Below are positions 1-1,237 of a stretch of DNA of 1,237 nucleotides, one piece after another. The notes under the pieces are model-generated. The model saw nothing but the letters and a program-made list of their open reading frames with translations, was not told the DNA's origin and ran no database searches. Numbering within the stretch: the stretch's first letter is position 1; each line of letters starts with the position of its first letter. The DNA lies in NCBI RefSeq assembly GCF_003334315.1, contig NZ_QOWR01000119.1; one strand, given 5' to 3'. Made by a program: the position numbers and the translations under genes. Source of the DNA: Escherichia coli (lineage in GTDB: Bacteria > Pseudomonadota > Gammaproteobacteria > Enterobacterales > Enterobacteriaceae).

Positions 1-614
1 GCCTGCCGGGGCAGCAGTATGATGAGGAGTCCGGCCTGTATTACAACCGCCACCGCTATTATGACCCGCTGCAGGGGCGATATATCACTCAGGATCCGAT
101 TGGACTGAAGGGGGGATGGAACCTGTATGGATATCAATTGAATCCGATATCAGACATCGACCCCCTGGGTTTATCTATGTGGGAGGATGCAAAATCGGGG
201 GCATGTACTAATGGTCTTTGCGGCACACTATCCGCTATGATAGGTCCAGATAAATTTGATTCTATAGATAGCACCGCATATGACGCCTTAAATAAAATAA
301 ATAGCCAATCTATTTGCGAAGATAAAGAGTTCGCTGGTTTAATATGTAAGGATAATAGTGGCAGATATTTCTCAACAGCACCTAACCGAGGAGAAAGAAA
401 AGGATCATATCCATTCAATAGCCCTTGCCCTAATGGTACTGAGAAAGTATCAGCTTATCATACTCATGGTGCAGATAGTCATGGAGAATATTGGGACGAA
501 ATATTTTCAGGTAAAGATGAGAAAATAGTTAAAAGTAAAGATAACAATATCAAGTCATTTTATTTAGGTACGCCCAGTGGTAATTTTAAAGCAATAGATA
601 ACCACGGGAAGTAA
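1..614 (+). CDS. Rhs-family polymorphic toxin, 3' portion (5'-partial): end of the RHS repeat-associated core plus a variable C-terminal toxin domain
   Basis: Frame 3 is open from position 3 to the TAA at 612..614 with no upstream stop, so the gene starts outside the window. The translation begins [57 protein letters not shown], which is the hallmark C-terminal end of the Rhs core (YD repeat followed by the PxxxxDPxGL boundary motif). The start at 138 in the ORF track is an in-frame TTG (Leu), not a real start. Which Rhs paralog this is cannot be determined from the window. Confidence 0.93.
159..173 (+). other. DPLGL core/toxin demarcation motif of Rhs (predicted autoproteolytic release site region)
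   Basis: Codons gac-ccc-ctg-ggt-tta encode DPLGL at 159..173. A first DPIGL lies at 93..107. In Rhs proteins the conserved PxxxxDPxGL motif marks the junction between the conserved core and the variable C-terminal toxin. Confidence 0.85.
174..611 (+). other. Variable C-terminal (Rhs-CT) toxin domain, 146 aa, family unassigned
   Basis: This is the segment after DPLGL: [18 protein letters not shown]…[33 protein letters not shown]…NHGK. It is AT-rich (about one-third GC by eye, versus about 60% GC in the first 60 nt of the window). It contains 5 Cys and a His cluster (HTHGADSH). No HExxH, HNH or obvious deaminase motif was seen. Confidence 0.75.
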
Positions 615-639: not shown

Positions 640-1023
640 ATGTCTGCAGAGTTCATGGTAATATGTAAAAAAATATTGTTTAGGAACTGTGTCATTGTAT
701 CTTTGTTTGTTTTTACATACAACACATGGGCGCAGTGTAATAATAATATTAAAATAATGCGCAAGTATGAAAGTGAAGGTAAATATACCGTTAGAAATTT
801 GGTTAAAAATAAAGCTATAGCATTGGAATTAGCTGAGATATATGTTAAGAATCGTTATGGACAGGATGCCGCAGAAGAAGAAAAACCATACGAAATCACT
901 GAGTTAACAACAAGTTGGGTTGTTGAAGGTACCATTCACTCAGACCAAATTGCTGGTGGGGTTTTTATTATAGAAATAGGCAAAAATGATGGGAGAATTC
1001 TGAATTTTGGCCACGGAAAATAA
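640..1023 (+). CDS. Putative cognate Rhs immunity protein (127 aa) with a signal-peptide-like or membrane-anchor N-terminus
   Basis: Complete ORF from ATG 640 to TAA 1021..1023, same strand and 25 bp downstream of the rhs stop, with the same AT-rich composition as the toxin domain. This is the canonical position of an rhsI immunity gene. The N-terminus (MSAEFMVICKKILFRNCVIVSLFVFTYNTWAQC) has basic residues followed by a hydrophobic stretch of about 11 residues and a possible signal peptidase I site (TWA|Q). The C-terminal half (…AEEEKPYEITELTTSWVVEGT…AGGVFIIEIGKNDGRILNF…) looks to me like the small NTF2-like/YbbC-type immunity proteins found beside E. coli rhs genes, but that is an unverified recollection. 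Confidence 0.7.
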   Translation: MSAEFMVICKKILFRNCVIVSLFVFTYNTWAQCNNNIKIMRKYESEGKYTVRNLVKNKAIALELAEIYVKNRYGQDAAEEEKPYEITELTTSWVVEGTIHSDQIAGGVFIIEIGKNDGRILNFGHGK

Positions 1024-1033
1024 GTATGTAAGG

Positions 1034-1056
1034 GGTGATGATGCCAACTTACTGAT
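1034..1056 (+). repeat. IS1 left terminal inverted repeat (IRL)
   Basis: GGTGATGATGCCAACTTACTGAT differs at one position from the canonical IRL I recall (GGTGATGCTGCCAACTTACTGAT). The exact start is ambiguous by 1-2 nt because of the preceding G run (1032..1035). Confidence 0.85.
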
Positions 1057-1088
1057 TTAGTGTATGATGGTGTTTTTGAGGTGCTCCA

Positions 1089-1237
1089 GTGGCTTCTGTT
1101 TCTATCAGCTGTCCCTCCTGTTCAGCTACTGACGGGGTGGTGCGTAACGGCAAAAGCACCGCCGGACATCAGCGCTATCTCTGCTCTCACTGCCGTAAAA
1201 CATGGCAACTGCAGTTCACTTACACCGCTTCTCAACC
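1089..1237 (+). CDS. insA: IS1 InsA (transposition repressor / N-terminal part of the InsAB' transposase), 3'-partial
   Basis: GTG at 1089 followed by codons for [48 protein letters not shown], the InsA zinc-finger region (CxxC…CxxC). The frame runs off the window end. Confidence 0.93.

What the first reader, a model, noticed from the sequence alone, without database searches (positions are those of the whole stretch)
93..180. Sharp compositional break exactly at the DPxGL motif
GC content drops from about 60% (counted for 1..60) to about one-third (counted for 241..300) immediately after DPLGL, and stays low through the end of the downstream ORF at 1023. This is the signature of a horizontally acquired toxin/immunity cassette grafted onto a conserved Rhs core by recombination. 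The tandem motifs QDPIGL (93..107) and IDPLGL (159..173) bracket the region expected to contain the autoproteolytic release site.
Basis: partly seen in the sequence, partly recalled or inferred. Interest (0 to 1): 0.4.

Follow-up and report, generated by a model that had tools for sequence, protein, structure and literature searches.

The report
Rhs core-to-toxin junction in rhsB

Summary
The window is the 3' end of E. coli rhsB. It holds the core end, a Tox-JAB-2/DUF4329 toxin tip, the immunity gene yhhH and the left end of an IS1. Apart from the IS1, it is 99.9% identical to K-12.

The GC drop is real: the core is 62% GC and 241-1023 is 34% (Fisher p about 1e-6 within the window). It is not sharp and does not fall immediately after DPLGL. 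Positions 122-240 are intermediate (47%), and 174-240 is still 49%. The GC change point can only be placed within 77-250.

DNA homology to the paralogues rhsA, rhsC, yibJ and ybfO ends after position 121 (support 117-121). That is 52 nt before the end of DPLGL, and third-codon-position GC starts to fall at the same place. Pooled over 23 rhs core ends, that measure switches at codon -18, which is window 120-122.

At protein level the conserved core does end at 173.

The two DPxGL motifs do not bracket the release site. Their aspartates, 22 residues apart, form the catalytic pair, and cleavage is expected after the second motif (173|174).

The mosaic interpretation is correct but has been textbook knowledge since the 1990s. 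Interest is low.

The parts
3..173 (+). Last 57 codons of the Rhs core: the C-terminal aspartyl-autoprotease plug, sequence [57 protein letters not shown].
   Evidence: Translation. TIGR03696 scores 79.3 bits against a cut-off of 32.5, covering model positions 20-76 of 76. NF041261 RHS_core covers positions 1205-1261 of 1261. Both end at residue 57, which is 171-173. The stretch is 99.9% identical to K-12 rhsB.
93..107 (+). First DPIGL motif. Asp 93-95 (K-12 RhsB D1221) is predicted to be one half of the catalytic pair.
   Evidence: Sequence. It aligns with the D1324 motif of P. protegens RhsA. Mutation data are in PMC8765631.
122..173 (+). Core-coding segment that travels with the toxin cassette. 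It is conserved at protein level ([18 protein letters not shown]), diverged at DNA level from rhsA/rhsC, and already has lower GC3.
   Evidence: The mismatch change point against rhsA, rhsC, yibJ and ybfO is after 121, with support 117-121 (99-121 for rhsC). GC3 is 0.70 for 3-122 and 0.47 for 123-173. The 118-173 variant is present once per genome in 2,729 genomes, close to the 2,657 that carry the core end plus this tip. By contrast, matches to 1-300, most of them to the core end only, occur at a median of 5 places per genome.
159..173 (+). Second DPLGL motif. Asp 159-161 (D1243) is the second catalytic Asp. Autoproteolytic cleavage is predicted after Leu 171-173, between 173 and 174 (L1247|S1248).
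   Evidence: The two Asp are 22 residues apart, with 17 residues between the motifs, as in P. laumondii Rhs1 (cleavage L1342|A1343) and P. protegens RhsA (density ends at W1350). Several deposited core chains end exactly at the aligned residue.
174..611 (+). C-terminal toxin domain, Tox-JAB-2 / DUF4329, with E, HTH, S..D motifs and conserved Cys residues. It is truncated in this allele.
   Evidence: Pfam PF14220, E = 2.8e-38. Family alignment and invariant residues. Classification in PMC3482391. GC is 0.37 and GC3 is 0.25.
612..614 (+). Premature TAA stop (GAA in K-12). It removes the last 18 residues of RhsB; the normal stop is at 666-668.
   Evidence: This is the only internal difference from K-12 and L001. 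None of 2,709 E. coli genomes holding this stretch carries the T.
640..1023 (+). yhhH, the cognate immunity gene (Imm-NTF2-2). AAGGA lies 7 nt upstream at 628-632, and the N-terminus has a hydrophobic signal-like segment.
   Evidence: ORF. Pfam PF15631, E = 3.4e-26. RefSeq annotation. GC is 0.333.
1034..1237 (+). Left end of an IS1 element: inverted repeat GGTGATG..., with insA starting at the GTG at 1089. It is inserted 10 bp after the yhhH stop, inside the tail of the cassette.
   Evidence: Window 1033-1237 is 100% identical to an annotated IS1 in L001. K-12 diverges from the window at 1034. GC is 0.51.

Best explanation
The window spans the junction of a mosaic polymorphic-toxin gene, E. 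coli rhsB.

Anatomy. The GC-rich part (to about 121) is the 3' end of the Rhs core shared almost identically by rhsA, rhsB and rhsC. From 122 to about 1075 (K-12 equivalent) lies an exchangeable AT-rich cassette. The cassette encodes its own copy of the last 17 core residues including the second DPxGL, then a Tox-JAB-2/DUF4329 toxin, then the immunity protein YhhH.

Mechanism, inferred from characterised homologues and not shown here. The Rhs repeats form a cocoon around the toxin. Asp 93-95 and Asp 159-161 form an aspartyl autoprotease that cuts after Leu 171-173 and frees the toxin. YhhH protects the producer.

Evolution. New tips are installed by homologous recombination within the conserved core 3' end (C-terminal displacement). 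The composition step is therefore a seam between two gene pools with long-separate histories. Its apparent softness has two causes. The seam lies upstream of DPLGL, and the first 22 toxin codons are rich in Gly, Ala, Cys, Ser and Thr, which raises second-position GC.

This allele. It is additionally decayed, with a nonsense codon at 612 and an IS1 at 1034.
For: - Identity: the window is 99.9% identical to K-12 rhsB-yhhH.
- Domains.
- Seam: in K-12, rhsA and rhsB are 99.2% identical up to about window 121-145, and homology resumes at window-equivalent 1076. The mismatch change point is after 121 for all four K-12 comparisons.
- rhsB against rhsD: identity is 0.825 for 1-120, 0.64 for 122-173 and 0.59 for 174-300.
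- GC: the core is 0.62, 122-240 is 0.47 and 241-1023 is 0.34. Each step is significant (p = 0.0015 and 0.0073).
- GC3 is 0.70, 0.47, 0.41 and 0.23 across 3-122, 123-173, 174-239 and 240-611. GC2 is 0.64 in 174-239.
- Generality: all five K-12 rhs genes have cores of 0.61-0.63, tips of 0.37-0.41 and immunity genes of 0.27-0.34. Pooled GC3 of 23 core ends switches at codon -18, which is window 120-122, with 2-lnL support on that codon only.
- An independent Rahnella pair breaks at -51/-52 nt.
- Cleavage geometry and the catalytic pair.
- Prior knowledge of the G+C-rich core and A+T-rich extension, and of tip displacement: PMC2935791 and PMC3150448.
Against: - Nothing here shows cleavage, toxicity or immunity for RhsB/YhhH. 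These are inferred from homologues.
- From my own knowledge, K-12 lacks a type VI secretion system, so delivery is uncertain.
- GC alone cannot place the seam better than 77-250. The GC3 change point for rhsB taken alone is noisy, at codon +4.
- Between distantly related cores the identity change point falls at about 0, the end of DPxGL. One close pair breaks at -1 and others at -27/-28. The -52 position therefore applies to this cassette and is not a universal rule.
- The 23 loci are not independent, and 17 of them were ascertained with a peptide pattern that ends at GGW.
Confidence: 0.9

Rival explanations
1. One reading: the recombination and composition boundary lies exactly at the end of the second DPxGL (173/174), and the release site lies between the two motifs.
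For: - Protein-level conservation and both curated core models end at 173.
- Comparisons between distant cores put the identity change point at about 0.
- One close Rahnella pair breaks at -1.
- The literature says that sequences diverge abruptly after DPxGL (PMC3150448).
- Position 173 lies inside the GC support interval.
Against: - For this gene, DNA near-identity to four paralogous core ends stops after 121, and GC3 has already fallen to 0.47 in 123-173.
- GC is still 0.49 in 174-240.
- Cleavage in characterised Rhs proteins is after the second motif, not between the motifs.
Confidence: 0.1
2. The GC drop has no separate ancestry behind it. It reflects only the amino-acid composition or functional constraints of the toxin and immunity proteins, or local mutation bias.
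For: Amino-acid content does shape the profile locally. GC2 is 0.64 in 174-239, which produces a GC bump.
Against: - The drop is strongest at synonymous third positions, from 0.73 in the core to 0.23-0.29.
- It coincides with a homology breakpoint.
- The same cassette sits at a different locus, rhsA, in strain ECE218.
- Unrelated tips all show the drop.
Confidence: 0.03
3. The cassette is a recent import from a low-GC donor species, and its AT-richness is a fading donor signature.
For: Tip and immunity gene GC (0.33-0.37) is far below the E. coli genome average, which is about 51% (the DGF-298 abstract listed gives about 51%).
Against: DUF4329 tips that are only 37-55% identical in protein sequence (rhsD, Phytobacter, Rahnella) have the same 0.34-0.37 GC beside 0.60-0.63 cores. 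The AT-richness is therefore an old, maintained property of the circulating tip pool in Enterobacterales. The core is as atypical as the tip, in the opposite direction (0.62).
Confidence: 0.1

Closest known systems
E. coli K-12 RhsB / YhhH (b3482 / b3483), one of the composite rhs elements described by Hill and colleagues
   Same: The window is 99.9% identical over 1-1033. It has the same core end, the same DUF4329 tip and the same immunity gene. The G+C-rich core and A+T-rich core extension are described in PMC2935791.
   Different: The window allele has a nonsense codon at 612, which shortens the tip by 18 residues. It also has an IS1 10 bp after yhhH. Neither feature was seen in the E. coli complete genomes searched.
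C-terminal displacement of rhs tips (Jackson et al. [quoted passage not shown] 2011)
   Same: An invariant core carries non-homologous tips, followed by a low-GC trough. The same tip occurs at different clade I loci. This was seen here for rhsA against rhsB and in strain ECE218.
   Different: Those papers place the divergence after DPxGL at protein level. Here the DNA-level seam for this cassette lies 52 nt upstream, so the cassette brings its own second DPxGL.
Structurally characterised T6SS Rhs effectors: P. laumondii Rhs1 (7PQ5), P. protegens RhsA (7Q97) and P. aeruginosa Tse5 (8CP6)
   Same: The core end aligns with E-values of 1e-16 to 3e-25. There are two DPxG[L/W] motifs with 17 residues between them, and the catalytic Asp residues are 22 apart. 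Deposited chains end at the aligned Leu/Trp.
   Different: The toxin domains differ. Cleavage of E. coli RhsB itself was not tested.
Tox-JAB-2 / Imm-NTF2-2 toxin-immunity pair (Zhang et al. 2012)
   Same: The Pfam matches and the E, H[ST]H, S, D motif are as in that classification.
   Different: No biochemical activity is known. The nuclease or RNase guesses in the literature fit poorly with signal-peptide-like immunity proteins and conserved Cys residues.

Membership tests
Rhs core protein (RHS repeat-associated core domain) | Match to TIGR03696 above its curated cut-off, ending at the core terminus. | tested here: met
   79.3 bits against a cut-off of 32.5. Model positions 20-76 of 76 end at the Leu encoded by 171-173.
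Rhs core protein (RHS repeat-associated core domain) | Full-length RHS element core (NF041261 equivalog, cut-off 2000 bits; YD-repeat cocoon upstream). | tested here: inconclusive
   The window holds only the last 57 core residues. They score 110 bits and align to positions 1205-1261 of 1261. The 99.9% identical K-12 gene is annotated as full-length rhsB.
Rhs C-terminal aspartyl autoprotease | Two DPxG[L/W/F] motifs separated by 17 residues (Asp to Asp 22), the second within PxxxxDPxGL. | tested here: met
   DPIGL at 93-107 and DPLGL at 159-173, with [11 protein letters not shown] matching PxxxxDPxGL. The spacing is 22 in 26 of 30 other loci.
Rhs C-terminal aspartyl autoprotease | Self-cleavage after the second motif that depends on the two Asp residues. 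| not testable with these tools
   This needs protein chemistry. It is inferred from the alignment to 7Q97, 8CP6 and 7PQ5.
Tox-JAB-2 / DUF4329 toxin domain | Pfam PF14220 match and conserved E, H[ST]H, S, D residues. | tested here: met
   E = 2.8e-38. Invariant E79, H123, T124, H125, S139 and D142 in the alignment. Definition in PMC3482391.
Tox-JAB-2 / DUF4329 toxin domain | Toxic activity that is neutralised by the adjacent gene product. | not testable with these tools
   No experimental report was found in the held library.
Imm-NTF2-2 immunity protein (YbbC/YhhH family) | Pfam PF15631 match, encoded immediately downstream of a Tox-JAB-2 tip. | tested here: met
   E = 3.4e-26 over residues 60-127. 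The gene starts 26 nt after the window's stop codon, and in K-12 it overlaps the toxin gene by 29 nt.
IS1 insertion sequence | Terminal inverted repeat and insA start identical to an annotated IS1. | tested here: met
   Window 1033-1237 is 100% identical to an annotated IS1B-family element in L001.
Horizontally exchanged cassette (mosaic gene) | A composition shift that coincides with a homology breakpoint against paralogues, with the cassette found in other contexts. | tested here: met
   Breakpoints after 121 and at the window-equivalent of 1076. GC3 falls from 0.70 to 0.23. The same cassette is at the rhsA locus in strain ECE218.

The most novel reading that the evidence does not exclude
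In rhs genes the DNA-level seam between the shared core and the exchangeable tip usually lies about 18 codons upstream of the cleavage site, right after DPxGL-xGGW, and not at the second DPxGL. Each toxin cassette would then carry its own second catalytic Asp and the residues just upstream of the cut. Half of the autoprotease active site would travel, and could co-evolve, with the toxin it releases.
Probability: 0.45. Interest if true: 0.3.

Novelty: already known. Interest (0 to 1): 0.1.

Why it matters
It matters little beyond correct annotation. The GC-rich core, the AT-rich tip and immunity gene, and tip exchange by recombination are the defining and long-published features of rhs elements.

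Three corrections are useful for anyone using composition to delimit toxin cassettes:
- In this gene the DNA seam lies 52 nt upstream of the protein-level boundary.
- The release site follows the second DPxGL rather than lying between the two motifs.
- The GC recovery at the right edge of the window is an IS1, not native chromosome.

The pooled GC3 switch at codon -18 is a small refinement. It suggests that cassettes carry their own cleavage motif.

Tried and rejected
- NCBIfam gave no family for the tip or for YhhH.
- PDB sequence searches found nothing for either protein.
- The word-indexed homologue search returned mostly fragments. The exhaustive representative search was more useful: 757 relatives, with the matched stretch at or near the C-terminal end of nearly all of the 150 listed.
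- Hit H67, whose match starts at window 116, looked like a cassette boundary. It is an IS3 insertion in the core of strain ECE218.
- Promoter, terminator and repeat scans of the window showed nothing above chance.
- Per-locus GC3 change points are too noisy to use singly. rhsB alone gives codon +4.
- Pairwise breakpoint mapping between cores that differ by 20-30% only recovers the protein-level boundary at about 0. It cannot resolve the DNA seam.
- Antisense ORFs (134-418 and others) were considered and dismissed. They lie within well-supported sense genes.
- I did not run structure prediction. The JAB-fold assignment is already published and is not central to the finding.
- The source organism of the window was not identified.
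- Two paper searches failed for lack of a queue slot and were repeated.

Full report
**What the window is.**

In the reading frame that starts at base 3, the window encodes [57 protein letters not shown], followed by a 146-residue tail. A second ORF lies at 640-1023.

Megablast against 5,426 complete E. coli genomes identifies the region as rhsB-yhhH at 99.6-99.9% identity, next to the nik operon. Window 3-1033 matches K-12 MG1655 rhsB/yhhH with a single mismatch.

- The core end matches TIGR03696 (79.3 bits, cut-off 32.5) and NF041261 RHS_core. Both models end exactly at the Leu encoded by 171-173.
- The tail is Pfam DUF4329 (E = 2.8e-38). Zhang et al. call this domain Tox-JAB-2, with conserved E, H[ST]H, S and D residues, and pair it with the immunity family Imm-NTF2-2 (PMC3482391). 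These residues are invariant in my alignment.
- The ORF at 640-1023 is Imm-NTF2-2 (PF15631, E = 3.4e-26).
- From 1034 onward the sequence is the left end of an IS1, 100% identical to an annotated copy.

**Checking the observation.**

The quoted GC values are correct: 0.600 for 1-60 and 0.317 for 241-300. GC stays low to 1023. Region 241-1023 is 0.338, and no 60-nt window there exceeds 0.467. The contrast is highly significant, with Fisher p = 8.6e-07 inside the window and a log-likelihood ratio of 103 once the identical K-12 core is added.

The drop is not sharp and does not occur immediately after DPLGL.

- 60-nt windows read 0.45 at 81-160, then 0.50-0.52 at 141-240, and about 0.32 only from 241.
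- A three-level description fits better: core 0.62, 122-240 at 0.47, and 241-1023 at 0.34. Both steps are significant (p = 0.0015 and 0.0073).
- The GC change point is after 235 (support 201-288) from the window alone. It is after 125 (support 77-250) with the K-12 core context.
- By codon position, GC3 is 0.70 (3-122), 0.47 (123-173), 0.41 (174-239) and 0.23 (240-611). The GC bump at 174-239 comes from second positions (0.64), because those codons are rich in Gly, Ala, Cys, Ser and Thr.

**Where the seam is.**

I aligned the window with the eight other core ends of K-12: rhsA, rhsC, rhsD, rhsE and the orphan fragments yibJ, yibS/W, ybfO and ylbH.

- Against rhsA, rhsC, yibJ and ybfO the window has 3-4 mismatches in 1-121 and 17-24 in 122-173. 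The maximum-likelihood change point is after 121 in all four comparisons, with support 117-121 (99-121 for rhsC).
- Those four sequences stay nearly identical to each other up to 146 and diverge from 147.
- At whole-locus scale, K-12 rhsA and rhsB are 99.2% identical through the core. They are unrelated across the tip and immunity gene. Homology resumes at L002 4836, the window-equivalent of position 1076, within the last 32 nt of rhsA plus yibA.

The rhsB-specific cassette is therefore about 122-1075. The IS1 in the window interrupts its 3' tail.

Two further results tie 122-173 to the cassette rather than to the shared core.

- The 118-173 DNA variant occurs once per genome in 2,729 genomes. 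That is close to the 2,657 genomes carrying the core end plus this tip. Matches to 1-300, most of them to the core end only, occur at a median of 5 places per genome.
- rhsB against rhsD, which carries a diverged DUF4329 tip on a different core subfamily, shows the same step: identity of 0.825 (1-120), 0.64 (122-173) and 0.59 (174-300).

**Is this general?**

- All five K-12 rhs genes have cores of 0.61-0.63 GC, tips of 0.37-0.41 and immunity genes of 0.27-0.34. Each has two DPxGL motifs 22 residues apart.
- A scan of one genome per species returned 53 loci. The Asp-Asp spacing is 22 in 26 of the 30 loci with long enough flanks. Mean GC falls from 0.575 in the bin -120..-61 to 0.458 in the bin -60..-1, which is before the motif ends.
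- Pooled GC3 over 23 core ends drops from 0.5-0.7 to 0.30 at codon -18 relative to the cleavage site. The 2-lnL support covers that codon only. Codon -18 is window 120-122, the Asn after GGW.
- Among pairs with closely related cores outside E. coli, Rahnella L013 against L033 and L045 breaks at -51/-52 nt. Trabulsiella L025 against L027 breaks at -28, and L033 against L045 at -1.
- Between distant cores the identity change point falls at about 0, because the inter-motif peptide is conserved at protein level.

So the protein-level boundary is the end of DPxGL, as the literature and the curated models say. The DNA seam of individual exchanges lies at -52, -27 or -1, and for this gene it is at -52.

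Two caveats apply. The loci are not independent. Seventeen of them were found with a peptide pattern that ends at GGW.

- 'Same tip with an AT-rich core' is not met. DUF4329 tips in rhsD, Phytobacter ursingii, Rahnella ecdela and E. albertii sit on cores of 0.59-0.63 GC. The tips themselves are 0.34-0.37.
- 'Breakpoint elsewhere' is met at DNA level, as described above.

Tips that are only 37-55% identical in protein sequence share the same low GC. AT-richness is therefore an old, maintained property of the tip pool. It is not the fading signature of a recent import. The core (0.62) is as atypical for E. coli as the tip, in the opposite direction.

**How it works (inferred).**

[quoted passage not shown] D1338N abolishes cleavage, and the toxin starts at A1343 (PMC8636562).
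- In P. protegens RhsA, D1324 and D1346 are the catalytic pair, and the density stops after W1350 of PxxxxDPxGW (PMC8765631).
- The window has exactly this geometry: 17 residues between the motifs, and Asp residues at 93-95 and 159-161.
- The core end aligns to 7Q97, 8CP6, 8QJ*, 8UY4 and 7PQ5. Several deposited core chains end at the residue aligned to Leu 171-173.

The predicted release site is therefore 173|174, which is L1247|S1248 in K-12 numbering. It is not between the motifs; the motifs supply the protease.

The remaining steps are taken from the same literature and from PMC3150448 and PMC2935791. They are encapsulation in the Rhs cocoon, delivery, and protection by YhhH. None was tested here.

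**Novelty.**

Hill and colleagues described the G+C-rich core and A+T-rich core extension of E. coli rhsA-E. Jackson et al. 2009 restated it together with the displacement model and the low-GC trough. The toxin and immunity families were catalogued in 2012. The finding is a correct recognition of a textbook feature, with imprecise placement of the seam and a wrong placement of the release site.

**Other observations.**

- The window's rhsB carries a nonsense codon at 612 that is absent from all 2,709 E. coli genomes holding that stretch.
- The IS1 junction at 1034 was not seen in the genomes searched.
- Immunity proteins next to DUF4329 tips all begin with signal-like hydrophobic segments, and YbbC has an LFAC lipobox. 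The toxin has conserved cysteines. This points to action in the periplasm rather than the nuclease or RNase roles guessed in the literature.

Noticed in passing
window 612-614: A G-to-T change turns GAA (Glu) into TAA. It removes the last 18 residues of RhsB, a tail that is conserved in homologues. It also abolishes the 29-nt overlap with yhhH seen in K-12. None of 2,709 E. coli complete genomes holding this stretch has the T.
   Followed up: yes
window 1034-1237: An IS1 left end (insA GTG at 1089) is inserted 10 bp after the yhhH stop. No listed hit among 5,426 E. coli genomes has this junction as one contiguous match, so the source strain is probably outside that collection, perhaps Shigella-like. 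The promoter-like site at 1041-1068 lies inside the IS1 end.
   Followed up: partly
window 640-740 (YhhH N-terminus); L005 4582-4950 (YbbC); ORFs after the tips in L012, L013, L014 and L015: Every immunity protein next to a DUF4329 tip starts with a hydrophobic signal-like segment, and YbbC has an LFAC lipobox. The toxin alignment has five invariant Cys residues. This suggests a disulfide-bonded toxin that acts in the periplasm, which conflicts with the nuclease/RNase labels in the literature.
   Followed up: partly
L002 4836-5234 against L003 4286-4684; L007 6001-7855: Downstream of yhhH the K-12 rhsB locus keeps the last 32 nt of an rhsA-type tip and a truncated yibA (yrhC). Strain ECE218 has the same RhsB-tip/yhhH cassette at the rhsA locus, followed by an intact yibA, with the core cut by IS3. 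The cassette therefore moved between loci and left behind an orphan immunity gene of the previous tip.
   Followed up: partly
protein P0002 (E. coli, 242 aa, seen on 8 contigs): The Rhs N-terminus (MSGKPAARQGDM...PLPF) is fused directly to IDPLGL plus the full DUF4329 tip. The entire roughly 1,170-residue core has been deleted in frame.
   Followed up: no
L009, L010, L011, L015 and similar short contigs: E. coli rhsB/rhsD tip sequences at 100% identity appear in assemblies labelled Lachnospiraceae, Flavobacterium psychrophilum and Alistipes. These are most likely binning contamination.
   Followed up: no
proteins P0043, P0083, P0087 and P0104: DUF4329 domains sit at the C-terminus of very large proteins (2,014-7,386 aa). 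Some lack any DPxGL near the domain and one contains VENN. The same toxin family is therefore carried by delivery scaffolds other than Rhs.
   Followed up: no
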